From Chiloscyllium plagiosum (Eukaryota), in contig NC_057725.1 of assembly GCF_004010195.1 (NCBI RefSeq), forward strand, positions 20,486,239 through 20,545,857: a stretch of DNA of 59,619 nt. The letters run 5' to 3'. Position numbers and translations under genes: made by a program. The notes below the pieces were generated by a model. That model did no database searches. It was not told where the DNA came from and saw only the letters and a program-made list of their open reading frames with translations. This document shows, in pieces, positions 1,269 to 42,514 of this stretch (position 1 is its first letter; the number at the start of each line of letters is the position of its first letter).

Positions 1269-1439
1269 CTTTGAGAGAAAGCGAGGGCTGCAGATGCTGG
1301 ATATCAGAGCTGAAAATGTGTTGCTGGAAAAGTGCAGCAGGTCAGGCAGCATCCAAGGAACAGGAGAATCGACGTTTCGGGCATAAGCCCTTCTTCAGGT
1401 TTCCTGAAGAAGGGCTTATTTCCAGCAACACATTTTCAG
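1269..1439 (-). mobile_element. Short Penelope-type (pLTR-derived) insertion with partial fold-back, inserted into the L1
   Basis: 14-bp direct repeat ctctcaagtaaaat at 1255-1268 and 1440-1453. Same family sequence as the terminus of the Penelope at 30.9 kb. Confidence 0.85.
1367..1400 (-). ncRNA. Minimal hammerhead ribozyme core (Penelope type)
   Basis: Minus strand reads CTGAAGA-AGGGC-TTAT-GCCC-GAAA-CGTC-GATT: CUGANGA, stem II, GAAA and a GUC cleavage triplet. Confidence 0.7.
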
Positions 1440-6079: not shown

Positions 6080-8345
6080 AATTTTCCAGATCTCTCTTAT
6101 CACAGAATTAGTCATGGGGACTGGAGGATTGCAAATGTTATGCCACTGTTGAGAAAAGGACAAAGGAAAATTATAGACCTGTCGGCTTGGCATAATACAG
6201 GATAAGACAAATATACGTTTAGAAAAAAGTAAGTTCATTCCAGACAGTTAACATGGCTTTGTCAAAGGACAGGTCATGTCTGTCAAATTTAATTGAATTC
6301 TCTGACAAAGTGACATGGGCAGTGGATTTGTGTCGTGCTGTGGAAGTTGTATCTTTGGACTTTCAGAAAGTATTTACTATAGAGCCACATGGCAGGTTGG
6401 TTGGCAAATTAGAAATGTTTGGGATTGACAGATTCTTGGCAGCATGGATTAGAAGTTGGCTAAAAGATAGAAGACAGAGAGTTGGTATAGATGGACATTT
6501 CTCAGATTGGAGACAAGTTGCAAATGATGATCCCCAGGGCTCGGTTTTCGGACCCTTGCCTTTTCTGATTTATATAAACAATTTGGAAATGGGTGTTGAC
6601 AGCAAAATCAATAAATTTGCAGATGATACAAAGATAGGGAGAACAGTGAATTGTATGGATGTAATTAATATAAATGATTTGGATGAGAATTTAGGAGGGA
6701 TGGTTAGTAAGTTTGCAAACGACACCAAAATCTGTGCTGTAGTTGACAGTGAAGAAGGTTATCTAACATTACAAATAGATCTTGATCAATTGGGCAAATG
6801 GGCTGAGGAGTAGCAGATGGTGTTTAATTGGGATAAATGCGAAGGATTGCATTTTGGTAAAACAAATAAGGGTAAGGCTTATACAGTTAATGCTAGGTCC
6901 TGGGTAGTGTCAAATAGAGAGACTGAGGAGTTCAGGTACATAGTTCTTTGACAGTTGCATCACAGGAGACAGGATGGTTAAGCCAGAACTTAACACGCTT
7001 GCCTTCATTGCTCAGACCATTGAGTATAAGAAATGAGATGTCATATTGAGGTAGTACAGGATGTTGGTGAGGCCACATTTGGAGTACTATGTGCAATTCT
7101 GGTCGCTCTGCTACAGAAAGGATGTTGTTAAATTGGAGAGGGTTCAGAAAAGATTTACCAGGATGTTGCTGGGAATGGAGGGTTTGAGCTATAAGGATAG
7201 GCTGGGACATTTTTCACTGGAGCGTAGGACATTGAGAAATGACCTTAGAGAGGTTTATAAAATCACTTTTGCCTCGAGTCGGGGAGTTCAAAACTATGTG
7301 GTATATTTCTAAGGCGAGAGGGGAAAAATTTAAAAGGGACCTGAGAGGCAACTTTTTCACACAGACGAATGAATTGCCAGAGGAAGTGGTAGGTGCAGAT
7401 ACAGTTACAGCATTAGAAGACATTTGGATAGATACGAACCGTTTAGAGGGATATGAGCCAAATGCAGAAAACTTGGTTAGCATGGACGAGTTGGACTGAA
7501 TGGTCTGTTTCGGTGCTGCATGACTCTATGGCTTCAGAGGGACATTGACAAGTTGACTAAATGATCAGACACCTGGCAGATGAGTTTCAATGCAAGGAAG
7601 TGTGAGGAAATATATTTAGATGGAGAAACTCAGAGAAGCAATGCAGGCTCAATTGTATCAGTGTGAAGAGAGTACAAGAGCAGATGGACCTCAGGGATTA
7701 TGTGCACAATTCTCTGAAATGGAAACAGTTGTTCAGAAGGCTTATAGGATCCTTGCATTTATAAATAGGGGCACAGAGTATTACAGCAAGGAAGTGATGC
7801 TACACCTCTACGAATCATTGGAGCATTGTATTCAATTCTGGGCACCTTATTTAAGGAAGGATGTTAAAGCCCTAGAGAAAGTGCAAAGGAGATTTAGCAG
7901 AATGATATAAGGAATGAGGGATTTTCAATACAAGGAAAGATTACAGAGATTGGGCTTGTTCTTCTTGGAGCAGAGAAGATTAAGAGGCGACCTTATTGAG
8001 GTGTTCAAAATGATGAACAATTTGGACAGGGTAAAGAAGGATATTCTATTTTCACTAGTTGGTATGTCAGTAACTAGGGATCACAACTTCAAAATTGTCA
8101 GCAAGAGAGCTAGCAATGAGATGAGGAGAAACCTCTTTGCCCAGAGAGTGTGAGGATTTGGAATACACTGTCTGGGAGAGTGATGGAGGCAGATTCCACA
8201 TGACGTTTCAAAAGAGAGCTGGATATATATTCAAAAGTGATTAATTTAGGAGGCTACGGAGGTAAGGGTGGAGCATGGAACTAGATGGGTAGTTCTTTTG
8301 GGAGCTGGTACAGACACAATGGGTCAATGGTCTCCTTCTGCAGTA
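6080..8345 (+). mobile_element. Nested cluster of CR1 LINE fragments (an older copy interrupted by a younger copy at about 6665-7530)
   Basis: ORFs 6253-6813 (LDFQK, QGSVFGP, KFADDTK occurring twice), 7061-7312 (LVRPHLEY.VQFW), 7620-7910 and 7914-8153 (LEQRRLRGDLIEVFK). Confidence 0.9.
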
Positions 8346-13269: not shown

Positions 13270-14112
13270 TAGAACACAGAACAATACAGCGCAGAGCAGG
13301 CCCTTCGGACCTGGATGTTGCGCCAACCTGTGAACTAATCCTAACCCATCGTGCTACATATCCCATCATCATCCATATACTTATCCAAGGACTGTTGAAA
13401 TGCCCCTAATCTGGCTGAGTTAACTACATTGGTAGGCAGGACATTCCACACCCTTACCACAGTCTGAGTAAAGAACCTGCCTCTGACATCCGTCTTAAAT
13501 CTATCACCCCTCAATTTGCAGCTGTGCCCTCTCGTACAAGCAGATGTCATCATCCTTGGAAAAAGACTCTCACTGTCCACCCTATCTAATCCTCTGATCA
13601 TCTTGTATGTCTCTATTAAATCCCTTCGTAGCCTTCTTCTCTCCAATGAGAACAGACCCAAGTCCCTCAGCCTTTCCTCATAAGACCTTCCCTCCAGATC
13701 AGGCAACATCCTGGTAAATCTCCTCTGCACCTTTTCCAATGCTTCCACATTCTTCCCGAAATATGGCGACCAGAACTGCACACAATTCTCCAAGTGAGGC
13801 CGCACTAGCATTTTGTACAGATGCAGCTTGATATCACGGCTCCGGAACTCAATCCCTCTACCAATGAAACCTCACACACCGTATGCCTTCTTAACAGCAC
13901 TATCAATCTGGGTGGCAACTTTGAAGGATTTATGTACATGGACACCAAGATCCCTCTGCACATCCACACTACCAAGAACCTTTCCATTGACCCAGTATTC
14001 TGCCTTCCTGTTATTCTTACCAAAGTGAATTACCTCACGTTTATCTGCATTGAACTCCATTTGCCACCTTTCAGCCCAATTCTGCAGTTTACCCAAGTCT
14101 CCCTGCAACCTG
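13270..14112 (-). mobile_element. Young 5'-truncated CR1 LINE
   Basis: ORFs 13872-14108 (WAERWQMEFN, RDLGVHVH) and 13341-13811 (LVRPHLENCVQFWSP). Microsatellite-like 3' tail near 13270. Confidence 0.92.
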
Positions 14113-17320: not shown

Positions 17321-17541
17321 ATTCAATCTGCCTGAGTAGGGTTCAGTTGCAATTGAGATAGCCAAATGGGGTTAAATCTATACTGTCTGTCATGAAACAG
17401 TGAGGTCTCTGGACCAAGGTTTCTCAATTCAAATCAGATTGGATTGTATATAAGTTCCAAGGCTGACATGTTGAAGTCTTGTACAAAAACAGGAATTGCT
17501 GGTGAAATTCAACAGATTAGTAGACATTGTGGGAAGAAAAC

Positions 17542-17579
17542 AGTTAATGTTTCAAGTCCAGTAACTCTTCATCAGAACT
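17542..17579 (-). ncRNA. Decayed minimal hammerhead core in a Penelope-type repeat
   Basis: AGTT-CTGATGA-AGAGT-TACTGG-ACTT-GAAA-CATT-AACT. Stem I is AGTT/AACT; the ACGT palindrome has decayed to ACAT. Confidence 0.55.
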
Positions 17580-20500
17580 TAGTCTTGCACCAAGTTGCCA
17601 TCTTGTGGATGTGAGGTTAAACCAAGGACCCATTTGCAGTCTCCGACAGATGTAAACGATTACATGGAACTCAGGAGTTGTCTTGGTTTGATAGGGTTTT
17701 ATTGGGCCAAACCACATGATGTTCACCTTGACTAGGCTGGGCCATGTTGTGTGGGGCTAGGTTGGGTCAGGGAGGGCTGGCTTGGGATGAGCAGGGTAGC
17801 GTTGGTTCAAGCTGAGCCAACTAATCTGCTTGACCTGCTGTGCCTTTTCCAGCTCCACATTTTATTGACTCTGACTATCCAGCATCTGCAGACTTCACTA
17901 TCTCCACATGGGGCTGGATTGGTAAGGGCTGGGCTGCACAAAAATAGGTCTGCAGGGTTGGGATGGGTTGAGTCCTGCTGGGTCACATTGGACCGTTATC
18001 TCAACATTACAAAAAAATGTCTGCTTAGAAGATAAGAACAATTTACTTCAGTGCTTTAAAATGCAGATGAAAATTGAATATTGCAGATTGAAAGAAAAAT
18101 CAAAATGTATCCAAGAGCAATTGACGCCCAAAATCAGCTGTGCAGCAGCTCGATGGGTGGAATGGCCTACTCCATATATATCTTCCTTTAGGTTTGTCTT
18201 TCTAGAACTATTTGGGATTTTCAATTCAAGCAGCAAAGCGATCAGTTCTCAGCAAGAAAATTAAGGGGCACTTCCCTGATGTTGGAGTCCAGATTGCTGC
18301 TGAAGCTGGAGATGGGAGTGCTGAACCTGTGAGACCAGGACTTGGAGAGTGGCTGGAATTATCAACATGTCAAGTCCAGGAGGTTGTTGAGAGGCTATAG
18401 GAGTGAAATACCAAGAGGATAGAAATGTGCATATGCACTGTTACTACCCAGCATGAGAGTCAAAGATCTTCAAAGCTCACCATGATGATCAAAGACAATC
18501 TCTGAAGATCAAGAGTATGGAAAAAGTTCTGGAAACAGACAACTTGGGACATGGGATAAACCACTTCAAATACAGAAACATAAACAGAAATTTCTGGAGA
18601 AACTCAGTAGGTCTGGCAGCAGCTGTGGAGAGAAAACTGCATCAGTCTTTCAAGTTCAGTGACTCGTGCGCTCTGAAAGAGGGTCATGGAACTCAAAATA
18701 TTGACTCTGTTTTTTCTCCATTGGTGCTGCCAGACTGGCTGAATTTCTCCACCAATTTCTGTTTTTGTTTCAGATTTCCAGCATCTACAGTTCTTTGTTC
18801 GGTTTTACCCCAAATACAGGATGGTGCTGTAAAATCAAGGTCTGATTAATTAATAACCTCATAGTGACCATATCCCTAGAGAGCAATGATTGTAGTTTGA
18901 TTTAATTTTGCATTTATTTCCAGGGCATTGGATCTAAGACTAGTATTTAGACTTGAATAAGTTTAATTAATAATAACCCAACCTTAATATCATGTCTTTA
19001 TTATTTTTTTTCATGCTAACAGGTAATACAATTACCCTTTGTTTTACTCAAGAAAGCCTTGTGCTTGGCCCTCACTGCTACAGTAGAAATTAGTTAATTA
19101 TATTTTATTTGGGGAGAAGAACAGCATCCTGCTTAAAACAAAATTAGGTATTCATCGTGACTAAAAGTTGGAAAAAGGGAAGCTAGTCTTTCTCACCTGG
19201 CTGTAACAGTGACCATTACCCAGCAATTGTGTGATCTGAATTGTAATTTATCAGACCAATCTTGGATGGGTGTCCATGTTTTTCTGTATGTGGGCAAGGA
19301 CTGTTTCAGTCCCTGAAGAATTATAATTGAAGTTAAATGTTTTGGAATAATCAACAAATAGTCCTATGTCTGACCTTATGGTATCAGGAAAGTCATTGAT
19401 GAATAGCAAAAGATGTTTGAATCCATGATATGGGACTAGGGAACCTTTAGCGTGGTGCACCTGGTCTGAACCGATAGACCTGCTACCCTTTATCCCAGAT
19501 ATAGAATTTCCCTTTGATGCTTTGAGTCACTACACTTCTGCTACCTCAGCCAGTCCAATGTTACACTGCATAGTAGTTCCTATCCAAAGTCGGAAAGACT
19601 TTGGTCAATATTCCTATGTAGCAGCTTCTAGAAGTATTCAAGAGCAACCTCCAGTGATCGTCAGTTCATTTTTCATGTCTGTTTTAATCACGAATATTTG
19701 CATTTGCCTTTCTCTTCTGAGATAACAAAATTAAGTCTTAATGAAAGTTCCTAATTTCCAATAAATCCTAATCAAGATGATTTTTCCTAATTAATATGTC
19801 AAACTTTATGTTAATATTTAACAAATTGATTAAGGATTATTTACAAAACAGCTATATAATTGGTATTTGCTGCTGATTTGTCAGTCATATTACAAATAAT
19901 TACTCTTGCATACTGTAAGAACCAAGCAAATGATTTTAAATATTAGTTACTAGGAAAGTTAATGTGCAACTTTAATTTGGATACTGACAATTTGCTAACG
20001 TAATTTTCTTTTTAACAATTCATATCCATTATTTCTGCATCTAATGTCCTTATTGATGCAATATCCATCATATTCTACTTTGCTATTGTGCAACAATGAG
20101 AAAGTCATTTCAGCCGCAGTTTTTAATAATTCACGAAAGTTGGAACACAGACTTCATGCCCACATGTCTAATAGTAAATACAGGCAAATTCCATTATGGC
20201 TATCATAGAGTTTTAATAACATGCAGTTGCTTAAATTAGCAGTGTTGCTCAAAAGGGCACAAAGAAAAAGAGAACAGCAGCTCATATATGGTCAATGTCA
20301 GAGTGAGATAGAAAAAAAAGATTGAGGGATAGTTTTGAACAATCCTGGTTGGGGTGTCTTTTCAGTAAACAAAGGATAGAGTAGCTGGGGCATCCTATGT
20401 GAAGTATTTTATAATCCTTGCTACAGAAGGCAGGAAAATTAATAATCATTATAAACATAATTATCAAAATATTTCAGTAATGTGTATCTGCTGTATCGAT

Positions 20501-20784
20501 GTAATCTTTCCAAAGCACAATAAAGCAATAAAATGTTATATGTGTACATAAACGTCTCTAAATAATCAGTCATCACCAATTTGCTGAGCCATGGAGTTCC
20601 AAATGTCACCTGAGCCATTTTGGAAAGAGCCAAGTACAAACCTGTGCACTCCCAAATAAAAAATCTTGGAAACCGTATCTCATTGTAATCAGTGATCCCT
20701 GACTTTCATCTGGTGTATTCCACCTCCACAATGCCAGTGCCAAAAGGGAGTGAGACATCTAGAGGGATGGTCAGAAATTGAGGC

Positions 20785-20975
20785 ATGATCCCAACCCAAC
20801 ATACTTGTATTTCACTCCAGCTCAGACTTTGTCCTTCCAGGAACACCTGAAGAAGACCGCAGCACGTGTCAAAGCCAGAAATAAGTTATTAACCAAATGC
20901 TGATGGGCATTGCTGCCATTACACTCTGGACCTCAGCAGTTGCCCTAACCACGTTCTGCAGCAATATCTGCCAAA
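20785..20975 (+). mobile_element. Ingi/Vingi-like (I-group) LINE fragment, antisense and just downstream of the SLC26 stop codon
   Basis: Translates to PNPTYL..T..QTLSFQEHLKKTAARVKARNKLL ... TLWTSAVAL. Confidence 0.55.
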
Positions 20976-21188
20976 ATTCATCAGTTGACATCCTTGGATA
21001 TTCCTTGATGCTACATGCAAATAGCATTTGTCAGAAAAAGTGTTTTTTTGAGTCTATCCATTTGAATTTACCACTATGTAACGGGGAAAATGGAACCAAC
21101 AAACTATTGCAACAGAAATGCAATGTCAGATGTAGATCATTGTGTTAATAGTTTCTATGCTGGTTTGAAAGATTCAAACAAATTTTTG

Positions 21189-23606
21189 TTACAAAGCTGT
21201 CTCATATTCGATTATTCTTTGATTTCTTGATTTTACACCAGCCCTTTGATGGGAATTACTCACACCTCCTTCCACATGGCAAAGCCCTGTATTTGTGCTG
21301 ATGTTAGGATCTGCCTTAATTTCAATTGTGTCGCATTCAGTTAATGTTTCTCCATTTGTCTCAGGAATGTATTCAGATCCTTGTGGGCTCTGGTTTCTCT
21401 CTGCTGCTTGTTGCAGGGCATACAGAACAGCATCATGGATGCTGCGGAAAGCAAATCTTTGACTTGTTGATTTGAAGTAACCACGTTCTTGTAGACTCTT
21501 CAGAACTGTGCTTGAACAGCTGGCAATGATAAAGCTAACACCCATTCTTTGATATTGCTCAGACAGGTAAATCAAAGCACTCACTCCTTCATCATCCACA
21601 AAGCTTACTGACCCACAATCCAAAATTACAGTGTGAACATCTGCAGTTTGTTTGGATATTTTACGTCTGTACAATGCAGTATGATTTATTCGTCTCAAAG
21701 CATGTTCATCCAATTCAAGGAACTGTGTAGATTCCAGTAACATATGATATTTATCTTCTTCACTGTATAACTCATTATCACTTCCCAAATTACCAGACTG
21801 AAGATAAGAATTGACTTTAAGTTTTATCCAAGACAATAAAAAATCAATATTCCCATAATAAATAGAATCAAATGTTTTTATAATTTTAATTCCAACGATC
21901 TCTTTAGCAGTTTTCTCAACGGATAGGTCAGCATAGTTTTCTGTGTTGGGAATATGGCCGAAAATGGCATTGGATGGTCTCTGAAGCCTGTGTAGAGTGA
22001 GCAAAATTGAGAAAAGCACTCCAACTCCTAAACCGATATCTATATCTAGGATGCAAACTGCTGCAAATGTTATAATTCCAGCCCAAACCTCATATTTATT
22101 CTTTTTGCATGCAAAACAATACTTCCAGAAGAACTCGAGGTAACAGCCCAGATTTGAAATCAGAATAGCACCAAGAACTGCTTTGGGCACCAGTGGAAGC
22201 AGGTTTTCTGCACAAAGCAGAGCTGTAAGACAAAGGATTGCTGCAATCAGCCCAGCTGCTTGGGTTTGACCCCAAGTTTTTTCTTGAACCACTGTTTGTT
22301 CCCAAACCCCAGAAGCTGCAAAAGTCCCTAGAAATGAGAGTAGCAGGTCACAAGACCCCAAAACTATTGTCTCTTGGTGTGGGTGATAGGTTTCATTGTG
22401 TTTTTTGGAGTTTTCTCTCCCTAGAGAAATGCTCACTGCAAAGGTCACCAATGCAACAGTAACGGCATCTTTAACAACAACAGGTATTAAGGAGAAAGAA
22501 GGAAGGACAGGTTTTGGTAAGGTGAAAGGATAATCATTTATCAACCTGAGATTGTGGCTACTCTCTAGTTCCAACCAGAATGACAACCAAATGGAAGCAG
22601 CTATTGCAACAAATTCTATAGGTATGAGATGTCTGCTATAAAGAGAATTAATAACTTTAAAAGGCATCAGAAGTGCCAAAGTGGCTAAACCAGTGATTAC
22701 TGAGGCAGTGTGTGTTTCATGAATATTTTCAATTATAACCTTGCACTTATAAACAAGTGATAAAGAGCCATGATGAATTGGTGGATCAATACCAAGTATC
22801 AAAGTCAGGAGGATGGTGAATAAATGCAAAGCTGTTCCAGCTCTGAAACCATTCATAACATGCTCGGAAATGTATATTCTTATGAAACTGAGGTGAAATG
22901 CTCCCATTGAAATTAAAACAATTCCTGAAACAAAGGTGAGAGTAGTCACATGTAGTTCTCTCGAACATGTTGGAATACAGCCACTGTCAGAATCCACTTC
23001 ATGAGTTTCATTATGACTTATGCCATTTGCAATGAGCAGGCTGGTAAATGCAGATGCTCCATAGGACAGGTGTTTTGTCGTGCCAAGCAAGCAATATAAA
23101 ACTGTGCTAACTAAACTTGTGTAGAGACCATGAATAGGTGGTTGTCCACCGCAGACTGCAAAAGCAAGGGACAGAGGGATGGTCAGTAAACCCACACTAA
23201 TTCCAGACAGCAAGTCTCCTATGAACCATGCTTTCACTCTGTACCTGGAAAACCATCTGGAAAAGGGAATAACTCGTTGGAATAATTTCTTCAAATTGTA
23301 TGAAACTGGTAAGGTTAGTTCAGATGCCTTTCTTTCATATTCACACACCTTTTCTTCATTGTGCTTATCAATGCGGTGAAAATAAGGAATGTCATTCGTA
23401 AATGAAACCCTATGTGATGTTCTTGGGTTATAAATGGAAGTCCTGTCAGTTCTGACCAGAGGGATATTCGAACCTGATTGATCAGGAATTGTGTCACTGG
23501 ACCAAAATGATTCTGAACTTCCCAGCATGTTCTTCAGCTTAGTGCTCTTCCCATCCTTTCTTAACATTGTCTTCAACGATGCATTGATTAAATCTTTTTC
23601 ATCCAT
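21189..23606 (-). CDS. Divergent SLC26/SulP family transporter with STAS domain, single coding exon, 805 aa
   Basis: IPFSRWFSRYRVKAWFIGDLLSGISVG, PPIHGLYTS, GTTKHLSYG, IPIEF, HQETIVLG, VQEKTWGQTQ, LDIDIGLGVG; STAS motifs IYYGN, VILDCGSVSFVD and SIHDAV; C-terminus ETAL. Acceptor tcttcag| at 23623 and an in-frame TAG upstream of the ATG. Subfamily cannot be assigned by eye. Confidence 0.95.
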   Translation of the reverse strand: MDEKDLINASLKTMLRKDGKSTKLKNMLGSSESFWSSDTIPDQSGSNIPLVRTDRTSIYNPRTSHRVSFTNDIPYFHRIDKHNEEKVCEYERKASELTLPVSYNLKKLFQRVIPFSRWFSRYRVKAWFIGDLLSGISVGLLTIPLSLAFAVCGGQPPIHGLYTSLVSTVLYCLLGTTKHLSYGASAFTSLLIANGISHNETHEVDSDSGCIPTCSRELHVTTLTFVSGIVLISMGAFHLSFIRIYISEHVMNGFRAGTALHLFTILLTLILGIDPPIHHGSLSLVYKCKVIIENIHETHTASVITGLATLALLMPFKVINSLYSRHLIPIEFVAIAASIWLSFWLELESSHNLRLINDYPFTLPKPVLPSFSLIPVVVKDAVTVALVTFAVSISLGRENSKKHNETYHPHQETIVLGSCDLLLSFLGTFAASGVWEQTVVQEKTWGQTQAAGLIAAILCLTALLCAENLLPLVPKAVLGAILISNLGCYLEFFWKYCFACKKNKYEVWAGIITFAAVCILDIDIGLGVGVLFSILLTLHRLQRPSNAIFGHIPNTENYADLSVEKTAKEIVGIKIIKTFDSIYYGNIDFLLSWIKLKVNSYLQSGNLGSDNELYSEEDKYHMLLESTQFLELDEHALRRINHTALYRRKISKQTADVHTVILDCGSVSFVDDEGVSALIYLSEQYQRMGVSFIIASCSSTVLKSLQERGYFKSTSQRFAFRSIHDAVLYALQQAAERNQSPQGSEYIPETNGETLTECDTIEIKADPNISTNTGLCHVEGGVSNSHQRAGVKSRNQRIIEYETAL

Positions 23607-26317
23607 GCATTCAAATATCTAATCTGAAGATAAAAGTACAAATAAGCATATTTGGTTTTGTTTTCTGGATTTTGTTAAGTTTTCACTTTCATTCTTAAAC
23701 CTCTAACATATAGCTTCTGATACCCATGGATCCTCAATATCATTGTTCCCAACAGCTTTCACTTAGGAAGCAATGAAATCTCTTCTCCAGTGCTCCCATG
23801 CCTTACATCATCTCTAATTGCAAACATGCCTAGAATAGTGGTTGAGATGGGAAATCTCATAACCTTTAAAAAGTACTTGCCTGAGCACTTGAAACATCAT
23901 AATGTTCAAGGCTATAAGCCAAGTGCTGGGAAGCAGGACTGGTGTAGATATAAAGTAATTTTGTTGTTGTAGACTCAAAGGGTCTCTTTTGCACTATATG
24001 ATTCTATGATTAAGAATCATTCTTCATGATATTTCTGCAATACAAAACCTCCACTTCTCCAATTCTGAAACTTTATTGCTGGAACAGCACAGCAGGTCAG
24101 GCAGCATCCTCTCGGTTACTGCCTGAACCACTTTGCTTTTTCAGCAATAAAGTTTCAACTTTGATCTCCAGCATCTGCAGACCTTACTTACTTCTCCAAT
24201 TCTACCTTACTTCAAATATGGGAAAAAAAATTCCATAAGAGTGTAAAGGAAGAGCAAAGATGTTCATTTCTTTCTGAAATCTGCCAGTGCTTACTTTACA
24301 CAAATTAGACTTTTTGTCAGTAAAAGGTCAAAATTCAAGATTTTATAAGACAACATATCTTTTGACTTACCACAGAATATTTGCTAGTTTCATGTTTAGC
24401 AAGTGTCCACCGAAAACAAATGTCAAACTCCAAATGACATTTTCATATTGACTTGGTTACAGATATAAATAACCTCTAAAAAAAGACAGAAAGCAAATCA
24501 TTGATATAGAAAGTTAAATTTACAAGGAATTGTGCACATTTCAAGCTTGATCTGATAATTAGCAAGTAACATTCATGCCTAATAAGTGTCAGGCAATGAC
24601 CATCTCCAACAAGAGAGGATCTAATTATCTCAGTGTCATTCAATTACATTGCCATAATTGAATGCCCCAGCATCAATGTCTTAGTGTTATCATTGACCAG
24701 AAATTGAACTGATCCAGCCATATACTGTGGTTTTAAGAGTCGGTCAGAGGTTGGGAATGCTGCAGTATACAGTATAACCCACCTCCTGACAATATCAAAT
24801 TCCACCCTACCCCCATGCCCAAGATGTCTATGTACCATCTACAAGACACAAGCCAGAGGTACGATATGATCATCTCCATCGGCCTGGATGAGTTTCAACA
24901 ACACTCAGGAATCTGTATGAAGTCCAGTTCTAAGCAACCTACTTGACTGACACCGTATACACCACCTTGAACACTCACTCCCTGCTCCATTTTACAGTAG
25001 CAGCACTGCAGCTACTCTCCAAGGCTTGGTTGCAAGTAATTTCCAAACTCATGATTTCTACTACCTGAAATAAATCAATGAACTGCAGATGCTGGAGTTC
25101 TGAAATAAACAAAAACAGAAATTGCTGGAAAAACTCAGCAGGTCTGGCAGCATTTGTGAAGAAAAAAAACCGGGTAAATGTTTCAAATACTTTTTAACTC
25201 TGCTTTCTTTTCATTGATCGTGTCAGACCTGCTGAGTTTCTCCAGAAATTTCAGTTTCACTTCTACCACCTAGATCAATAAAGACAGCAGATACCTGGGA
25301 ACACTACCACCAGCAAGTTCATCTCCATGCCACTCACCATCCTGACATTGAAACATAGAAATGAAATGATACAACACAGAAGGGGGCTATTTGGTCCATC
25401 TTGTCTTGTTTGTCATTCCTTTATTATTGCTGGGTCAAAATCCTGGAACCGAGCCTCCCTAACCGCATTGTGGGTGTCCCTACAACACATGGACTGCAGC
25501 AGTTCTCGAAGGCAGCTCATCACCACCTTCTCAAGGGCAATTAGGGTGGGATAATAAATGCTGGCATAGCCTGTGAAGTAATTAAAAATATATATATAAC
25601 TCTGCAGGCATCACAGCTGATTTTAATTCAATTCTCATTTGATGTGCACATGTGGAAACCTTCCAACCAGAGTTAATGGTTAATAATCACACTTAAATAT
25701 TTCTTTTTATGAGGCCAAGAGGCCATTTGGAGCATTCTTATCCAAAACAATATGAAAGAGTCCAGTAGAAATTAGAGGTCAGATTTCAGCTTTTACTCAG
25801 TGTTTTTGATCTTCTCTATACCGGACAATATATTCACCAGTCGATTCATTGTTTGAGATCACAACTACAGGAATTGAGTGTGTAAATCTATTAGCTCAGC
25901 AAGAAAGCTGAACCATGTTGGATCAAAAGGTAATGAAACTCAGAGGGAGGGATGGATTTTCATTGAGACACAACATCATAAAAGGGGGCGGCATGAGTAA
26001 GGTATCTGAACTGTCCATCTTCCTTCCCACCTATCTGCTCCACCCTTCTCACCAACCTATTACAATCACCTCCTACCTGCATCTACCTACCTTTGCCCCA
26101 GCCCCAACCCCTCTTTGCCTATTTATTTTCAGCCCCCTTCCCCTTCCCTGTCCTGATGAAGAGTCTTGCCCGATATGCCAACTCTCTTGCTCCTCAGATG
26201 CTGCCTGACCTGCTTTACTTTTTCCAGTCCCACATTTTATCGACTCTGACTATTCAGCATCTGCAATCCTCACTATCGCCTCAGTGAACAAACTGGTAAA
26301 AATAAGTAAAAGTGCTC

Positions 26318-26330
26318 ACTTACCAGATGT
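26318..26330 (-). promoter_or_regulatory. Candidate 5' splice donor of an upstream non-coding exon of the SLC26 gene (alternative at about 24365-24375)
   Basis: Consensus CTG|gtaagt at 26324/26323 in non-repeat sequence. The coding exon begins with an acceptor, so an upstream donor is required. Confidence 0.35.
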
Positions 26331-28141
26331 CACTTCTTTGTAGCTATTTCATGCAGGGTATCTAATTTGTGACATTCGCTTTTGAGGAAATTTGGTCAGG
26401 GCTTAGGACCAATTTTGTGCCACCAACAGCTCTCATTCTGAATGAATATCATGGTGATGTAAAAAGTTTCAGCTGATCTTCAAAGATGTAACTACTGACG
26501 TATCATCGTTCAATCTGTCTCAAACACAATAAAATGATCAAGCATGATGCAGTTAAACCAACTGTAGCATTCACTCCTCACCCCACTCTCACTATCACTC
26601 TCTACATCCATAAAATGGACAGACTACTCATTGTCATATTGTTGTTTGTGGGAGCTTGTTGTTGTGAATATTTCTGACATTATAGCAGTGATTACATATC
26701 AAAAGATATTTCATTGGCTGGAGAGCATGGTAAATGTAATTTATCCTTCCTGTCTTCCATCCCTCCCTGCCCTCCCTTCCTCCTATCACTCTGCCAGTCT
26801 ACTTGTAGTCCGAAGTGACATTATCACTCAGTTAAACTCAAGGGAGGTCATGTACAAGGACACATGTATGTATTAATTAACATATGACTTCTAATCTGAA
26901 CTTTATTCCCATTTGCTGAGACCTTGAGTGTTTGTCAGTGTTCCCTGTGTGATCACTACATACATTTAAAATCCAATAAATTATGCAAGAAAGTGTTGTA
27001 AATAAATGGAATTACATAATGTGTAATCTGTGAAGATCAACTAACGTATCTACAGGAGTTTACAAATTTCAAATGAGTAATATGCAAAAAGGTGGCTAAT
27101 TGTGTACAAATTCTCTTCAGTTTTATGTGGACGTTCCATTTCTACAAATGCATGGAATTGGCTGTAGGCAGATTAATTTATTTTGTAAAAGAAAGTCAGT
27201 TAATTATTGTAAATAAATTATCAAGTAATAGTGAGTTCAAATCCCACAGTTCTTCTGTCAAGAAATACATTGAAATCATTTGGCAGCTAGAGTAAGGGCC
27301 AAGTATCTCTGTTAACCCTTTCTCGGGTGGTTGCAACAAATAATTTAGTTTAGCATGCAGCTATATATATGTCAATTAAAGGTTTAGTTAACTAATTCAA
27401 AACAAAAGAGTCAATTACAGTTTCCGAGAGTCAAACAAAGATAATTTTACTACCCCAGGTAAAAAAGCGACATAAAACACAAACGCAGTCAATTTTAAGT
27501 CATTATTCGTTCTTTTTAAAAATTTATTTTTGCCCATGAGAGGTCTCAGGTCTAATGATCTGATAAAGGAAGTTAAAGTTTGATAGTTACAATTGCCACC
27601 ACATAAAACATCCTTTAAGAATAAAATACCAGCAGTGGTGGGATGAGGCCATCAATTGGCATTTAGTGCCTTGTTGGGTGAGTGAGTCACCTGCCACGAG
27701 TAATTTCCATCCCTGTACTATGTCAACCAATTTTATGCCACCCCTCACATGCCAGCTGCAATGGAAAGGGTTGGGTTATACAACAGAAAATGAAGAAACT
27801 GCTTGACGTCCTGTCAGGTCAAAGGCCATTGAAGACATGCAGTGGAATCTTATCAGGGCCTGAACAATGTGGGCAATGATGGGATTTATGGCAGAATCAT
27901 ATGAGTGTTGGGAAAGCCTATCTTGACGTCAGGAGCAATTTGCTGCACCTTTTTTTGCATCAGTCAGAAAGCGAGGTGAGTTTCTCATTAGGCTGCGGTG
28001 AGTAGCTAATTAAAGGAGATTATAGCTTGTTAAAGTCCTTAGTAACTGCACAACTCACCTCTTTAATATTCCCATCCTTCCAAATGAACCAAACAAATGA
28101 GACATTGAGAAATCTCAGAGCAGGTTACCTGACAACTTGAG

Positions 28142-28529
28142 TCAAGATTAGAGTGGTGCTGGAAAAGCCCAGCAGGTCAGGCAGCATCCGAGGAGCAGGA
28201 AAATCGACGTTTCGGGCAGGAACTCTTCACCAGGAATCCTGAAGGGTGGGATAGCTGTCTCTCAGGGGTCCGAACAAAGTAGGTCAAAGGCAGCCCCCAC
28301 TACCAGTCCAGGGACTTGGTCACAGTCAGTCATCTGCTGGGGGTGTTCAGAGTCAGATTCCTCTCTCCACAGAGGGGATGATGAACTAAATGTTAGGAAT
28401 CCTGATGAAGGGCTCCTGCCCAACACGTCAATTCTCCTGCTCCTCGGATGCTGCCTGACCTGCTGTGCTTTTCCAGCACCACTCTAATTTTGACTCTAAT
28501 CTCCAGCATCTGCAGTCCTCACTTTCGGC
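28142..28529. mobile_element. Fold-back Penelope-type insertion with a roughly 150-bp internal captured segment
   Basis: 16-bp TSD tacctgacaacttgag at 28126-28141 and 28530-28545; inverted arms of about 100 bp. The centre (about 28244-28397) resembles about 29022-29178. Confidence 0.88.
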
Positions 28530-29469
28530 TACCTGACAACTTGAGCTCACTGTTTGCGCCAAATGACCTCCATGTTTGGTACTGAGTACCAACTACTTTG
28601 GACATGCTTCATGGGCACAAGACAAATGCACCCCACATCCATGGACATTGGCATCCAGTACGTGCCAGCCTTTAAAAACATTCATGGTATGGCATACTTA
28701 CAGTATGCTTCTGTATCTCGATGCTGCATTGGCCACCATCATTGTAAGGTTCCCATAAGGAAACTGTTTGCTCAGGGATATGCACAACTCATGGACTGGG
28801 TCAGGCTGCATCTTGGGCTCCTCACTGGCTGTCATGGCACTCACCCACTCTAAGCCCACCTGGGTGCTCACAGCACCTCTGCCTTGCATAGCCTTACTTT
28901 ATGCACTTTGTCCCCTCAGCCAGATATACTGATTCGTAGTACTTATCTCTTTCCTTACAATGTAGTGCAAACATAAAGGTAGGAAGCTTGTCATGGTTGT
29001 TTTCAGACCTCAGTCAAGTCAAGGGGGGATAGTTTTCTCTCAGGGGTCCTCATAAAATAGGTCAAAGGCAGCCCCCACAAAGGCACCCTCACAAAGGCAG
29101 TCCAGGCACTTGGTCACAGTCAGTCATCTGCAATCAGATTCCTCTCTCCACATAAGGGATGATGAACTAAGTGTCAGGCACCTCCCTTCAAGTTTTCTGC
29201 CACATTAGGGCTGCTTCCTAGAATGAGAGGTAAGCAGATATTAAGAGATATGAAAATGGATGGTACAGCTGTTACTTTTGGTGCAGGTAGGGAGGTGTGC
29301 CAAGCTCATGAATAATCAGCATAGAGGCCATTAAGGGGTTTGGATGGGTGAAAGTGAGTGAGGGAAGATGTTGCAGGCAATAGTGAGGATGGTAGAGCAT
29401 GGACCTTGGTGGGAGGAGGGTACAGTATCAGAGACAGAGTGAATGTGAGGTATCAAAGAGAAGATGGTG

Positions 29470-29700
29470 GCACTTAAGCTGATGGAGTGGAGAAGGCCTT
29501 CACTTTCTCCAATTGTACTGTGCATTCCCCAGTACAGCTAAGACTACATGACCCAGAGTAACCTCAGACTAGGCCAGTATAGCCTACTGTCCTGGCCTCC
29601 ATTGTGGTGCAAGTGGATGTTCTGCTTGTGTACCAGCCCTCTATCAAAACACTACCCTCCACGACCCTGGGGAAAATAATTCCCTGACAGCCATGTCTGG
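29470..29700 (-). mobile_element. Possible decayed Harbinger Myb/SANT-like gene remnant
   Basis: Frameshifted LA.SEV...NAQ...RKVKAFLHS-like remnant resembling the better-preserved copy at 36.9 kb. Confidence 0.3.
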
Positions 29701-30378
29701 GCAAATGTCAGGAACATTGAAGTGCAGGTCCATACTGACAGTATTTGTCCAGGTGCACCACGGGGCTTTGAAAGATGCACAGGCACAAGGCATGCTGGTC
29801 TTTCAGAAGATATTCACTGAGTATTCAGGTAAGATGGGGTCAGAAGCAGTGAGAGGGGCAACACTGAGGCAGGTCGTTAATGAGATGAGCTTGGGAAGAT
29901 GAGATGAGAAAATCCACTTGGGCTCTCAACAGCATAACCCTCCAAACGATGCAATGGCAGCCAAAAAAACTCAAGATTCAGCTTATTGTCTCCCTGCTTC
30001 TTGCAAAAATGCTCTCCTTTATTGCCAATTTTCCGCCTCCACTGCATCTGTTCCCAGGAGGACCAGTTCCATTACAGAACACACCAGATGGCCTCCTTCT
30101 TTAAAGACCGCAATTTCCCTTCCCACATGGTTGATGATGCCCTCCAGCGCATCTCACCCACGTCCTGCACCTCCACCCTTGAACCCCACCCCTACAATCA
30201 CAACAAGGACAGAACCTCCCGGTCCTCACCTTCCACCTCACCAACCTCCATATACATCTCATCATCCTCCACCATTTCTGCCACCTACAAACGGATCCCA
30301 CCACCATAGATATATTTCCCTCCCCACTCCTATCCACTTTCTGTAAAGACCGTTCACTCCGCAACTACCTGGTCAGGT

Positions 30379-37120: not shown

Positions 37121-39960
37121 ACCAGCAGCTCAGACACAGACACCGCAGTGGGATCCCAGCAACTCAGATACTGACACCGCAGTGGGAACTCAGCAGCTCA
37201 GATACTGACACCACGGTGGGATCTCAGCAGCTCAGATACAGACACCGCAGTGGGATCTCAGCAGCTCAGATACTGACACTGCAATGGGATCCCAGTAGCT
37301 CAGATACACACACTGCGGTGGGAACCCAGCAGCTCAGATACAGACACCGTAGTGGGATCCCAGCAGCTCAGATACTGACACTGCAATGGGATCCCAGCAG
37401 CTCAGATACAGATACCGTAGTGGGAACCCAGCAGCTCAGATACAGACACCGCAGTGGGAATCCAGCAGCTCAGATACTGACACCGCAGTGGGAACTTGAC
37501 AACTCAGATACAGACACCACAGTGGGAGCCCAGCAGCTCAGATACAGACACCGCAGTGGCAACCCAGCAGCTCAGATACAGACACCGCAGTGGGAACCCG
37601 CAGCTCAGATACAGACACCGCAGTGGGAAGCCAGCAGCTCAGATACAGACACCGCAGTGGGAACCCAGCAGCTCAGATACAGACACCGCAGTGGGAATCC
37701 AGCAGCTCAGTAACACACATCGCGGTGGGAACCCAGCAGCTCAGATACAGACACCGTAGTGGGAACCCAGCAGCTCAGATACAAACACCGCGGTGGGAAC
37801 TCAGCAGCTCAGATACTGACACCACGGTGGGAACCCAGCAGCTCAGATACACACACCGTAGTGGGAACCCAGCAGCTCAGATACAGACACCGCAGTGGGA
37901 TCCTAGCAGCTCAGATACAAACACTGCAGTGGGAACCCAGCAGCTCAGATACAACATCGTGGTGGGATCCCAGCAGCCCAGATACACACACCGCAGTGGG
38001 AACCCAGCAGCTCAGATATAAACACTGCGGTGGAATCCCAGCAGCTCAGATACACACACCGCAGTGGAAACCCAGCAACTCAGATACAAACACCGCAGTG
38101 GGAACCCAGCAGCTCAGATACAGACACCATAGTGGGAACCCAGCAGCTCAGATACAGACACCGCAGTGGGATCCTAGCAGCTCAGATACAGACACCACGA
38201 TGGGAACCCAGCAGCTCAGATACAACACCGTGGTGGGATCCCAGCAGCTCAGATACAACACCATGGTGGGATCCCAGCAGCTCAGATACAACACCGTGGT
38301 GGGATGCCAGCAGCTCAGATACACACACCGCAGTGGGAACCCAGCAGCTCAGATATAAACACTGCAGTGGAATCCCAGCAGCTCAGATACACACACCGCA
38401 GTGGAAACCCAGCAACTCAGATACAGACACCGTGGTGGGAACCCAGCAGCTCAAATACCAACACCGCAGTGCAAACTCAGTAGCTCAGATACACACACTG
38501 CAGTGGGAACCCAGCAGCTCAGATACACACACCACGATGGGAACCCAGCAGCTCAGATACTCACAGCGTGGTGGGAACCCAGCAGCTCAAATACACACAC
38601 CGTGTTGGGAATCCAGCAGCTCAGATACACACCCTATCTTGGGAACCCAGCAGCTCTGATACAGACACCGCAGCAGGAACCCAGCAGCTCAGATACACAC
38701 ACCGCAGTGGTAACCCAGCAGCTCAGATACTGACACCGCAGTGGGAACCCAGCAGCTCAGATACTCACACCGCAGTGAGAACCCAGCAGCTCAGATACAG
38801 AACCACGGTGGGAACCCAGCAGCTCAGATACAACACCGTGGTGGAATCCCAGCAGTTCAGATACAGACACCGCAGTGGGAACCCAGCAGCTCAGATTCAC
38901 ACACCGTGGTGGGAATCCAGCAGCTCAGATACACACCCCATCTTGGGAACCCAGCAGCTCTGATACAGACACCACAGTGGGAACCCAGCAGCTCAGATAC
39001 AGACACCACAGTGGGAACCCAGCAGCTCAGATACAGACACCACAGTGGGAACCCAACAGCTCAGATACTCACAACGTGTTGGGAATCCAGCAGCTCAGAT
39101 ACACACCCCATGTTGGGAACCCAGCAGCTTAGATACAAACACCGCAGCAGGAACCCAGCAGCTCAGATACACACACCGGAGTGGTAACCCAGCAGCTCAG
39201 ATACTGACACCGCGGTGGTAACCCAGCAGCTCAGATACAGACACCGCAGTGGGAACCCAGCAGCTCAGATACCACACAACACAGTGGGAACCCAGCAGTT
39301 TAGATACACACACCGCAGTTGGAACCCAGCAGCTCAAATACTCACAGCGTGGTGGGAACCCAGCAGCTCAGATACACACACTGCAGTGGGAACCCAGCAG
39401 CTCAGATATACACACCGCAGTGGGAACCCAGCAGCTCAGATACAGACACCACAGTGGGAACCCAGCAGCTCAGATATTCACACCGTGTTGGGAATCCAGC
39501 AGCTCAGATACACACTCCATGTTGGGAACCCAGCAGCTCAGATACAGACACCACAGCAGGAACCCAGCAGCTCAGATACAGACACCGCAGTGGGAACCCA
39601 GCAGCTCAGATACAAACACTACGGTGGTAACCCAGCAGCTCAGATACAGACACCGCAGTGGGAACCCAGCAGCTCAGATACAAACACCGCAGTGGGAACC
39701 CAGCAGCTCAGATACAGACACCGAAGTGGGAACCCAGCAGCTCAGATACAGACACCGCAAGTGGTAACCCAGCAGCTCAGATTCAGACACCGCAGTGGGA
39801 ACTCAGCAGCTCAGATACAAACACTGCAGTGGGAACCCAGCAGCTCAGATACAGACACCGCAGTGGGAACCCAGCAGCTCAGTTACAGACACCACGGTGG
39901 TAACCCAGCAGCTCAGATACTGACACCGCAGTGGGAACTTGACAACTCAGATACCGGCAC
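37121..39960 (+). repeat. Minisatellite, 34-bp unit ccagcagctcagatacagacaccgcagtgggaac, about 80 copies
   Basis: Direct tandem periodicity. Overlapping ORFs in all three plus frames have a 34-aa (3-unit) period. Confidence 0.97.
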
Positions 39961-42514
39961 CGCTCTGAGAATGTCAGCCTTTGAAAGTTTGGGCTGGGAC
40001 CTCACTGCAATAGTTGGCTGAGGAAAAGCCTGATGCTGCCTGATCGGCGTACTTTTCCAGTATCACACATTTTGACTGAAGAAAGACATGGGCCAGGCCA
40101 CAGTTATTGGGGGAATGCCGTAGTCTAGGCACCTGCTCAGGCCAAAGCAGGAGAGGACCCTATAGTGATGACAAATTCATCCATGTTCTGCTGCATGTGG
40201 AAGCAAGATGAAGAAGACATATATGAGACAATGGCCCACTGCCCCTCACTTATTATCTAGCCTGTCGGCCTAGAAGTGTCGATGTAAATGAAGTGGTCAG
40301 CAATGCCAGGGGCAGAGAAGTGTACAGTAGACAGGGAGCTAATGCCTTGGGATTCAGGAGCTCTTAGCTATGTGTCATGTATAATGCATTGAGCTGTGTG
40401 TAATATTCTTGCTCTCTAAAAGGCCTTGTATTGGTGGGTCTTGTTGCTTCCTCCTTCACAGATCAAGGCACTTACCTTACCCACTCCAGATATGGTCACA
40501 GCCAGTTTCTTTCCCCTATCATACTTTCTATTTCCAACACAATGGAAGGTGACTACGAAAAGTCTTTGGACAGCAGTTGCCAGGCTTCACCTTCTACATG
40601 TTGGTGAGGACCTTGAGCGTCCAAATCAATTTCCTGGACTGCCCTGCCTGTAAATCTATCTGCAAGAGGCTTCAGATGCCCATCGTTTTACCCCAAAGCC
40701 CCCTGCACATGAGGTGACCATGCCAGGTGTGGTCAGACACTGTCACTCCCACCTCACGTGCTCCTGACCATGAACAGCCTCCACATCTCTACCCCCACAT
40801 TTCCCCATTCCTATCCATACTTTACCATGTTCCCACTTCCATTGTAAATGCAACTGTCCCCCTCAACCCGGTTCACAACTGTCATCTCTATTCCCCACAG
40901 TCTGCAGCCCACAATCCCACTCCCCACAAACAGGTTGTTGAGTCTCTTTCCTGTGGCATTAGCACTCCTCGTTCCCCCCATTGTCACCCTCACCCTACTT
41001 TTTCTCTCAGCTTCTCTGGACAGAGCTGTGGAACTGGTCCTTACGGAGTGTGCCCTGAGATATTGTTTCGTGCTGAGTAACATGGAGTTTCCTGGCAGCC
41101 AACTCCAAGCTGAAATTGCTAGGTATTTGTTCTGACTTTCATGTCAAGGATTCTCAATGTCTAGTTTGTTAGGTGCTGCACACTAATAAAACATTTAACA
41201 AGCATTAATTCCACTCAGTTGGCAACTTGTTGCTTTTGAGCAAGAAGCTTAACTTTACACATGGCAGATTCATAAAAAGATGCAGCAAGTTGCTCTGGAA
41301 GTTAAGATAGGCCTACTCAATGCAATGATAGTGCTATTCACTATCTCCAAACATTAACTAAACAGGTAACAGGATCAAAAACAAGACCTTGCGATATTGT
41401 TTAATAGGAATCAACTGCAAATGGGTGAATGCACCAACACCTTTGATATTGCAGATCGATTCATTTCACACAGGGTGGTTTGCAGCTTGTGTAACATTGT
41501 CAGTGTTCTGCGCTGTAGCTTCAAAAGATTTGGGAGTGTAAATTTTTAATTCTGTTCTTGTGTTTGACAATGACTGACAGACAGTTCAGATGCTTGATTG
41601 GGCACCTGCATAAAATAATAACAGGTTGACGTTATTCACATTTGATACTGCCTTACTCTTCCCTTCCCCCACCCAGACTATAAAATAAGGGGAATCTTCA
41701 ATGTGAAACTGATGGTGCTCGAAAATGCACCGTGATGTCGATGGGGATTTAAAATGTGCTGGTGACTGGAGGGCCACTCATGTATCCCAAAGCAAAATAA
41801 AAATACAATACAAATCTGCAGGAGAAGCACAGATATGAGGAAACCACTGTAAATGCATCACCCCAACCAGGTAGGTCAGCTCCTGATGAATCCTTTGTCA
41901 ACTTGTAAATTTCACCCATGAAATGATGGCGGCTGACAGTGAAATGTCGGGAATTCTGACCTTTCATGTCATGCCTTACATTTGCACATGCACACAAGTG
42001 AAGGGAAAACTGAACAGATGGACTGGAGATTTCATCAAAATGCAAATGAGGCAGAAATGTTTCAGGAGTGGGGCCCCACCCTACAATTCAATATTAAAAT
42101 GGAAATTTAGTTATCTTGCCTAAATAAAATGGGCTTTTGGTCCCACTAATCCTCGTTGATAAAATCGGCTTTCTTGCAGTATACATTTGTCAAATGTGAG
42201 ACTTCAGATTCCCACAAGTGCTTCCTGGCTGCAGATTTCACCCCTTGTAGGTCACTATGAGGTTGAACCAGACCATGTTTTAATCAGTAAGGTGATTAAA
42301 GGCTATGGGGAAAGGGCAAGAAAGTGGAGCCGAGGTGAATTAGATCAGCCACGATCTCATTGAATACAGATCAGGCTTGATGGGCTGAATGGCCTACTTC
42401 TGTTCCTATATCTTACAGTCTGATGACCACTCATAATCTCAACCCAGCCTGAGCAGACCTACCGATCACTTTATCACTAAAATCGCCTACTTCAGTCTCT
42501 GGTGGGAATGTGTT

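What the first reader, a model, noticed from the sequence alone, without database searches (positions are those of the whole stretch)
22296..23174. SLC26 transporter with a charge-reversed, rewritten anion-binding pocket
Seen: TM10 reads ASG-VWEQ-TVVQEKTWGQTQ, TM1 reads IPLSLAF, TM3 reads TKHLSYGAS, TM9 has HQE and TM5 has GFRAG. Established: in prestin/SLC26A5 the anion site is formed by Q97, F101, F137 and S396-L397-S398-R399 (CSLSRSLVQEGTGGKTQ), and NQE and GFT are family-conserved. My ungapped manual alignment gives Q97->L145, P136/F137->A184/S185, S396->V434, L397->W435, S398->E436 and R399->Q437, plus N->H410 and a new R255 in TM5. The basic residue is lost and a carboxylate sits where the anion binds, resembling engineered Ser->Glu anion-mimic mutants of prestin. 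The fold, STAS domain and 805-codon frame are intact. Inference: this is not a conventional Cl-/HCO3-/SO4 exchanger. It could carry a neutral or cationic solute (urea or methylamines would be notable in an elasmobranch), be an anion-independent voltage sensor/motor, or be a transport-dead STAS scaffold.
Basis: partly seen in the sequence, partly recalled or inferred. Interest (0 to 1): 0.88.

Follow-up and report, generated by a model that had tools for sequence, protein, structure and literature searches.

The report
Shark-only SLC26 with charge-flipped pocket
Sharks, rays and chimaeras share an extra, spliced gene of the SLC26 anion-transporter family whose binding pocket has a fixed acidic residue and has lost its basic one, so it likely no longer exchanges chloride or sulfate and may carry a different kind of solute.

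Summary
Window 21189-23606 (-) is an intact 805-codon SLC26 gene with one coding exon and spliced non-coding 5' exons. A confident model puts E436/Q437 at the start of helix TM10, in ungapped register with prestin S398/R399. L145, S185, V434, E436 and Q437 are fixed in 27 of 27 orthologue sequences (21 named sharks, rays and a chimaera). No other SLC26 examined has that Glu or Gln (0 of 311). It is not prestin: the genome has a separate multi-exon prestin, and the lineage sits on a 1.8-substitution stem. Published mutants at the same sites abolish anion transport (chicken prestin S404D, R405C) or motor charge movement (R399Q), so ordinary anion exchange and the motor idea are unlikely. Prestin S398 corresponds to UraA's uracil-binding E290. 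Best guess (0.38): a carrier for a neutral, zwitterionic or cationic solute. Rivals: self-plugged scaffold or sensor (0.28), proton-gated anion carrier (0.18). Substrate, tissue and dN/dS are untested. No paper describing it was found. A new variant of a known kind.

The parts
21189..23606 (-). Coding sequence, 805 aa, uninterrupted; SLC26 transmembrane domain plus STAS. Start may be M1, M14 or M27 (orthologues are annotated from all three).
19967..23623 (-). Large last exon: short 5' UTR piece, whole CDS and 3' UTR. Alternative acceptors at 23623 and 23618. Contig ends near poly(A)-type signals at 20127 and 19976.
24371..24475 (-). Non-coding 5' exon, GT-AG introns on both sides
26324..26516 (-). 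Non-coding 5' exon; contigs carry another 210-298 bases upstream whose exon was not located in the stretch laid (17500-30300)
   Evidence: table 8
22086..23225 (-). Pfam Sulfate_transp match (aa 128-507)
   Evidence: E 6.6e-69
21438..21716 (-). Pfam STAS match (aa 631-723)
   Evidence: E 1.8e-11
23172..23174 (-). L145 in TM1, replacing the Gln that tethers the TM10 basic residue (prestin Q97, SLC26A2 Q125); Leu in 27 of 27
23052..23057 (-). A184/S185 at the start of TM3 (prestin P136/F137); Ser in 27 of 27
22842..22844 (-). R255 in gate helix TM5; Arg or Lys in 27 of 27, in none of the 291 other SLC26 rows with a residue there
22809..22811 (-). L266, replacing the TM5 Gln found in 285 of 311 other SLC26 rows; Leu or Phe in 27 of 27
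22413..22415 (-). E398, new acidic residue at the end of TM8; 27 of 27
22377..22379 (-). H410 in place of the Asn of the NQE motif; 27 of 27
22347..22349 (-). D420 in TM9, at the position of the SLC26A2 disease change N425D; 27 of 27. Its partner Gln (A2 Q233) is L231 here.
22296..22307 (-). V434-W435-E436-Q437, start of TM10 (prestin S396-L397-S398-R399)
22146..22148 (-). G487 in TM12, replacing a Lys/Arg of the cytosolic vestibule (prestin K449, A2 R492); 27 of 27
21192..21203 (-). C-terminal E-[T/S]-x-L, a class I PDZ-ligand-like motif (consensus recalled); 27 of 27, while the preceding tail has 3 of 59 invariant sites

Best explanation
This is a cartilaginous-fish-specific SLC26 paralogue that keeps the family fold and likely works as an elevator-type carrier retooled for a neutral, zwitterionic or cationic small solute rather than chloride, bicarbonate or sulfate. 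Shown: the gene is intact and spliced; the fold and STAS domain are kept; the pocket was rewritten on a long stem branch and then fixed. Inferred: E436 sits between the TM3 and TM10 helix ends, repels free anions and hydrogen-bonds a substrate N-H or amine, as UraA E290 does with uracil. F137>S opens room for a larger substrate. Loss of the TM10 Arg freed its tethering Gln (now L145). Speculative: the new Lys/Arg at 255 in gate helix TM5 faces the transport cleft and could pair with E436 to hold a zwitterion (an osmolyte such as taurine, betaine or TMAO) or act as a gate salt bridge. The C-terminal motif likely docks it on a PDZ scaffold.
For: Fixed, family-unique ionisable or polar residues in or near the path: E436, Q437, S185, H410, D420, E398 in 27 of 27, and K/R255 in 27 of 27. 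New buried charges are not the expected result of simple decay (inference). Prestin S398 superposes on UraA E290 (section read), and E290 hydrogen-bonds uracil (passages). The TM domain is as conserved as STAS (194 of 443 invariant vs 52 of 135 in the folded STAS parts) and far more than the tail (3 of 59). Confident SLC26 fold. Stem 1.82 substitutions per site against a window-to-chimaera path of 0.54, similar to 0.41 for SLC26A6: a burst of change followed by constraint. Vestibule basic residues are lost.
Against: No transport assay, substrate, tissue or atomic pocket geometry. Pocket invariance (5 of 7) is not clearly above the TM background (44%), and replaced sites overall are invariant in only 24 of 52 cases. 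Several polar path residues became hydrophobic (L145, L231, I265, L266, V434), which fits a sealed protein. The second UraA carboxylate and His on TM8 (E241, H245) have no counterpart: mid-TM8 carries no ionisable residue. W435 is Cys in 6 of 27, so an aromatic cage for trimethylamines is not conserved. A stingray kidney table lists seven slc26 contigs and no prestin-like one (weak, table may be filtered).
Confidence: 0.38

Rival explanations
1. Transport-dead, self-plugged SLC26: E436 stands in for the bound anion and caps the two helix dipoles. The protein is kept as a membrane scaffold, regulator or sensor acting through STAS and the PDZ-type tail, possibly on a channel or another SLC26 (precedent for SLC26A8/A9 with CFTR is recalled, not checked).
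For: An acidic residue at this site abolishes chicken prestin transport (S404D), as does loss of the Arg (R405C). S398E blocks chloride residence in simulations. The protein carries equivalents of two SLC26A2 disease changes, Q125L and N425D. 52 of 196 family-conserved TM positions are replaced, more than in any paralogue tested. The PDZ-type end is kept in 27 of 27.
Against: Several new ionisable residues are fixed rather than one cap. The TM domain is not relaxed relative to STAS. F137>S enlarges rather than fills the site. N425D is compensated by loss of its partner Gln (L231), which suggests rewiring rather than damage (inference).
Confidence: 0.28
2. Atypical anion transporter: E436 is a proton site whose protonation admits an anion (H+/carboxylate or H+/anion symport), or anions slip through uncoupled as in SLC26A9.
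For: SLC26A9 lacks the Arg and conducts chloride fast; R399V gives prestin a small uncoupled chloride flux. Glu protonation gates sulfate binding in SLC26A11 and SULTR4;1. F104A, the F137 equivalent, increases halide flux in SLC26A7. The TM5 His of the second halide site is probably kept (H261 in 25 of 27; mapping inferred). K/R255 could be a relocated positive charge.
Against: The known proton Glu lies on TM8 about 7 A from the anion, not in the cleft. Placing a carboxylate in the cleft blocks anions (prestin S404D, SLC26A7 F104E). The Ser/Gln ligands and vestibule basic residues are gone.
Confidence: 0.18
3. Conventional Cl-/HCO3-/SO4 exchanger that tolerates the changes.
For: Fold, STAS, F149, N485 and L486 are kept. 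SLC26A2 chloride binding relies mainly on helix dipoles, and Q125L keeps 40-70% activity.
Against: 6 of 7 pocket residues are replaced; single changes at these sites abolish exchange in prestin, pendrin and SULTR4;1.
Confidence: 0.07
4. Anion-independent voltage sensor or motor, a natural version of prestin S398E.
For: S398E and S396E prestins keep non-linear capacitance without chloride. Prestin is the top structural match.
Against: R399Q largely or fully abolishes the capacitance. True prestin exists separately in this genome with intact Ser-Arg. Placement as sister to prestin is rejected (AU p=0.006 under LG, 0.045 under C20-PMSF).
Confidence: 0.06

Closest known systems
Prestin (SLC26A5) and its engineered S398E/S396E mutants
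   Same: Best solved-structure match (about 30-33% identity; Foldseek TM up to 0.84; VIA Z 51.4, rmsd 3.3 over 591 residues); Glu at the S398 position. Databases name the orthologues 'prestin-like'.
   Different: Not the orthologue; lacks R399, Q97, F137 and S396; one coding exon against a multi-exon prestin elsewhere in the genome.
SLC26A1/A2/A12 sulfate-transporter subfamily
   Same: Best or near-best tree placement (AU p 0.84 and 0.64); these genes are also intron-poor (two coding exons).
   Different: Placement is not distinguished from the root or tunicate branches (14 of 75 placements not rejected under PMSF). A1 and A2 are present separately with Gln and Lys intact. This gene lacks their shared coding intron and lies near RAG1/RAG2.
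SLC26A9 (also A10 and reptile/bird A8)
   Same: Natural loss of the TM10 basic residue; A9 also lacks the TM5 Gln and ends in a similar T-A-L motif.
   Different: They keep Gln in TM1 and a small neutral residue at the S398 site; none has an acidic residue there. Sister placement to A9 or A8 is rejected (p 0.015 and 0.003).
UraA / NCS2 (SLC23) nucleobase carriers
   Same: Same 7+7 fold (VIA Z 29.4); Glu at the equivalent TM10 position (E290) and no TM10 Arg.
   Different: 13% identity, no NCS2 Pfam match, no TM8 Glu/His pair, has a STAS domain. The likeness would be convergence, not membership.
Proton-coupled SLC26s (SLC26A11, SULTR4;1, SLC26Dg)
   Same: A carboxylate near the substrate site can coexist with anion transport.
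   Different: Their Glu is on TM8, and SULTR4;1 keeps the TM10 Arg; here the Glu is in the cleft itself.

Membership tests
SLC26/SulP family | Sulfate_transp domain followed by STAS domain | tested here: met
SLC26/SulP family | 14-TM 7+7 fold with TM3/TM10 half helices | tested here: met
SLC26/SulP family | Canonical anion site: TM1 Gln, TM10 small residue plus Arg/Lys (typical, not universal: A9 lacks the Arg) | tested here: not met
SLC26/SulP family | Anion transport activity | not testable with these tools
   needs oocyte, HEK or liposome assay
SLC26/SulP family | Homodimer | not tested
   no complex prediction was run
Prestin (SLC26A5 orthologues) | Groups with SLC26A5 in a tree | tested here: not met
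   p=0.006; p=0.045, marginal; long-branch caveat
Prestin (SLC26A5 orthologues) | Is the genome's SLC26A5 locus, with S398/R399 | tested here: not met
   separate multi-exon prestin on G000:C23 with Ser-Arg
Prestin (SLC26A5 orthologues) | Non-linear capacitance or electromotility | not testable with these tools
   patch clamp needed
SLC26A8 | Groups with tetrapod SLC26A8 | tested here: not met
   AU p=0.024 and 0.003
SLC26A1/A2/A12 subfamily | Groups with A1/A2/A12 | tested here: inconclusive
   best or near-best placement but not separable from root positions
SLC26A1/A2/A12 subfamily | Two coding exons with the shared intron | tested here: not met
   single coding exon; intron described in PMC12357937 (passages)
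NCS2/SLC23 (works-like comparison) | Glu at the start of TM10 (UraA E290) | tested here: met
   E436 = prestin S398; S398 = E290 from a published superposition, not my own
NCS2/SLC23 (works-like comparison) | TM8 Glu/His for substrate and proton (UraA E241, H245) | tested here: not met
   no ionisable residue in mid-TM8
NCS2/SLC23 (works-like comparison) | Xan_ur_permease profile match | tested here: not met
   one search lists only Sulfate_transp and STAS at E up to 0.001
Retrogene | Coding region without introns while paralogues have them | tested here: met
Retrogene | Identified parent gene at another locus | tested here: inconclusive
   parent unresolved; loss of one intron from an A1/A2-type copy fits equally

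The most novel reading that the evidence does not exclude
A previously unnamed vertebrate SLC26 member, unique to cartilaginous fishes, that re-evolved a UraA-like glutamate pocket and transports a non-anionic or zwitterionic osmolyte (TMAO, betaine, taurine or urea): the first animal SLC26 that is not an anion transporter or anion-dependent motor, and part of what lets sharks, rays and chimaeras run their osmolyte physiology.
Probability: 0.2. Interest if true: 0.88.

Novelty: new variant of a known kind. Interest (0 to 1): 0.66.

Why it matters
It adds an unrecognised member to the vertebrate SLC26 set, hidden under the automatic name 'prestin-like'. It is a natural, long-conserved version of the S398E plus R399Q combination that prestin labs build by hand. 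It therefore offers a direct test of what the TM3/TM10 cleft does when a carboxylate replaces the anion and the Arg is gone, and of how an SLC26 could cross to SLC23-like chemistry. If it carries an osmolyte it would bear on elasmobranch urea/TMAO physiology. If it is transport-dead it is a clean model of an SLC26 pseudo-transporter.

Tried and rejected
Pseudogene or assembly artefact: rejected. The frame is intact in 27 sequences, spliced contigs exist in three runs from two studies, and 3 of 4 coding differences in those runs are synonymous; the fourth, R717S, matches 23 of 27 orthologues. Misalignment of TM10: rejected. Prestin, A6, A8 or A9 orthology: rejected by placement tests, marginally for prestin under PMSF. 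Coding 5' exons: rejected, in-frame stops. First structure prediction from the 12-sequence alignment failed (pLDDT 32) and was not used. The careful IQ-TREE search did not finish; the quick PMSF tree was used, and the placement tests kept the backbone fixed. No RNA holder was on record in the run search; the single-cell run X9, read at about 2%, gave no reads on the coding exon, which says nothing about tissue. SLC26A7 and A8 were not found in the genome, but those searches used a stricter first look, so absence is not shown. No poly(A) relic was seen at the 3' end, uninformative at this age. Literature searches that found no description of this gene: 0 hits; 0 hits. The two supplements of PMC11145369 gave no text match for the chimaera accession or 'prestin', but its tree figure could not be seen. 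Subscription journals are not covered. No earlier scan findings. ESM Atlas returned only Sulfate_transp clusters.
Full report
1. The observation. The window's longest ORF is 21189-23606 on the minus strand, 805 codons. It matches Pfam Sulfate_transp and STAS and solved SLC26 structures, prestin first. An AlphaFold model of residues 95-740 built on 150 sequences reached pLDDT 91.4 and pTM 0.88. It shows short strands at 182-183 and 432-433 with helices starting at A186 and W435, the TM3/TM10 crossover that forms the substrate cleft. Foldseek and VIA place it with SLC26 (TM up to 0.84; Z 51.4 to gerbil prestin; UraA Z 29.4).

2. It is a real, expressed gene. Contigs from three runs in two studies join 26324-26516, 24371-24475 and a large exon from 23623 or 23618 down to about 20000, across GT-AG introns. 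The runs are not on record as RNA, but the joins are splice joins and the genome search found one copy of the gene. The 5' exons are non-coding and hold several short upstream ORFs. The tissue is not visible. Of four coding differences in those contigs, three are synonymous and the fourth matches most orthologues.

3. Distribution. Searches found orthologues at 65-99% identity in sharks, rays and the chimaera Callorhinchus, all named 'prestin-like' or by domain only: 27 sequences, 21 named species, including three duplicate-species records and two unnamed ones; one 52-aa fragment was dropped. An exhaustive HMMER search of 1.84 billion representatives gave one hit at 66% (the chimaera) and then a drop to 34% or less (best 150 of 874 at E<=1e-30 listed). 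None of those 150 other than the chimaera joined the clade. The closest named protein is from a bamboo shark (99%). The shark-chimaera split at roughly 400 million years is recalled knowledge.

4. The pocket is rewritten and fixed. L145, S185, V434, E436, Q437, H410, D420, E398, L231 and G487 are invariant in 27 of 27; position 255 is Arg (16) or Lys (11); W435 is Cys in 6. Among 311 other SLC26/SulP rows (many are near-duplicate isoforms), none has Glu at 436, one has Asp and keeps the Arg, none has Gln at 437, and none has Lys or Arg at 255. Loss of the basic residue alone occurs in 21 of 311 (A9, A10, reptile/bird A8, others), so the Glu is the distinctive part. Six of 7 pocket positions are replaced against 46 of 189 other conserved TM positions (p=0.0015, partly post hoc); six paralogue groups show no such enrichment. 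Against over-reading: pocket invariance (5 of 7) is not clearly above the TM background of 194 of 443, and the divergence is protein-wide (52 of 196 conserved positions).

5. Origin. The genome holds separate loci whose best matches and tree positions are SLC26A1, A2, A3, A4, A5, A6, A9 and A10, plus a weak A11-like match; its prestin has the intact Ser-Arg. So this is an extra paralogue. In a 43-sequence tree its stem is 1.82 substitutions per site, while the window-to-chimaera path is 0.54, close to 0.41 for SLC26A6. Placement tests on a fixed backbone favour the SLC26A1/A2/A12 branch or basal positions and reject sisterhood with prestin (p=0.006 LG; 0.045 PMSF), A8 (0.024; 0.003), A6 and A9; 14 of 75 placements survive under PMSF. 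A long branch can be pulled to the root, so the parent is unresolved. The gene lacks the coding intron reported in all slc26 genes compared in PMC12357937 (passages), which fits retroposition or loss of one intron from an A1/A2-type copy. It lies 105 kb from RAG1 and 137 kb from RAG2, past a BTB-kelch gene and a SPRY exon, and head to head with an ABTB-family gene 25 kb upstream. Catalase is on the same contig 41 Mb away. That these genes are linked on human 11p is recalled.

6. What the changes imply, from published mutants. PMC3988826 (section 9 read): prestin S398 superposes on UraA E290; R399Q largely or fully abolishes non-linear capacitance; chicken prestin S404D and R405C abolish transport. 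PMC10699807 and bioRxiv 2024.01.29.577264 (passages): S398E keeps capacitance without chloride, and voltage dependence is described as needing both the negative charge and R399. PMC11059360 (passages): SLC26A2 Q125 tethers K442; Q125L and N425D are disease changes; N425 bonds to Q233. By spacing these map to L145, Q437, D420 and L231, so both partners of each pair changed together. PMC8298490 (passages): the Gln is called universal in eukaryotic homologues, and alanine at the Q, Y, S or R sites nearly abolishes transport. Against a dead protein: SLC26A9 conducts chloride without the Arg (PMC11078650, passages); SLC26A7 F104A increases halide flux while F104E blocks it (PMC12356840, discussion read); Glu protonation gates sulfate binding in SLC26A11 (PMC13408680, passages). 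UraA E290 hydrogen-bonds uracil together with E241 (PMC5539350, passages); this protein has no TM8 counterpart to E241.

7. Mechanism. Shown: intact fold, spliced transcript, fixed acidic pocket, lost vestibule positives, conserved E-[T/S]-x-L end. Inferred: free chloride and sulfate are excluded. Most likely (0.38) the cleft now binds a neutral, zwitterionic or cationic solute through E436, with room made by F137>S and possibly a counter-charge from K/R255 in TM5; that this residue faces the cleft is inferred from helix periodicity only. Next (0.28) E436 plugs the site and the protein is a scaffold or sensor. Then a proton-gated or uncoupled anion carrier (0.18), a conventional exchanger (0.07) and a motor (0.06). 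The only tissue hint is negative and weak: a stingray kidney table lists seven slc26 contigs and no prestin-like one, although that species has the gene (PMC9396271, passages).

8. Novelty. Seven searches of the held library found no description of this paralogue. The 2024 slc26a12 paper counts twelve members and its text does not mention it (passages; its tree figure was not visible). Subscription journals were not searched. It is a member of SLC26 by fold and domains but fails the canonical anion-site test, so I file it as a new variant of a known kind. Interest 0.66: the sequence facts are solid and directly testable, the function is not yet shown.

Noticed in passing
window 48532-49121 and 53993-54300 (+): First two coding exons of an ABTB-family gene (ABTB2/BTBD11-like; Atlas Histone_ABTB clusters at 0.87, a lead only), head to head with the SLC26 gene. 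The SLC26 gene's unmapped first exon might start near this promoter.
   Followed up: partly
L054:2945-6130 (-) and L057:3024-4649 (+); G000:C16 20.37-20.40 Mb: Intact RAG1 and RAG2 open frames, convergent, 105-137 kb from the SLC26 gene.
   Followed up: partly
L049:1121-6941 (+) and L046:6668-6904 (-): A BTB-BACK-kelch gene and a SPRY-domain exon lie between RAG1 and the SLC26 gene.
   Followed up: no
window 37122-39963 and 47434-47808: Tandem arrays: 34-bp unit, about 84 copies, and 37-bp unit, about 10 copies. The first produces the long repetitive ORFs.
   Followed up: no
window 51-2418, 6223-6813, 13341-13871, 46283-46663: Fragments that look like LINE reverse-transcriptase frames (by eye from translations).
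   Followed up: no
window 23607-26516 (-), spliced 5' UTR: At least eight or nine short upstream ATG frames and two tandem acceptors 5 bases apart, which suggests translational control.
   Followed up: partly
proteins P0084, P0205, P0208, P0217, P0039, P0074: Reptile and bird SLC26A8, cod SLC26A10 and a frog pendrin-like protein also lack the TM10 basic residue, so SLC26A9 is not the only exception in vertebrates.
   Followed up: no
listing: Among the 120 best hits to an SLC26A8 profile, proteins named SLC26A8 came only from tetrapods; none from fishes or sharks.
   Followed up: no
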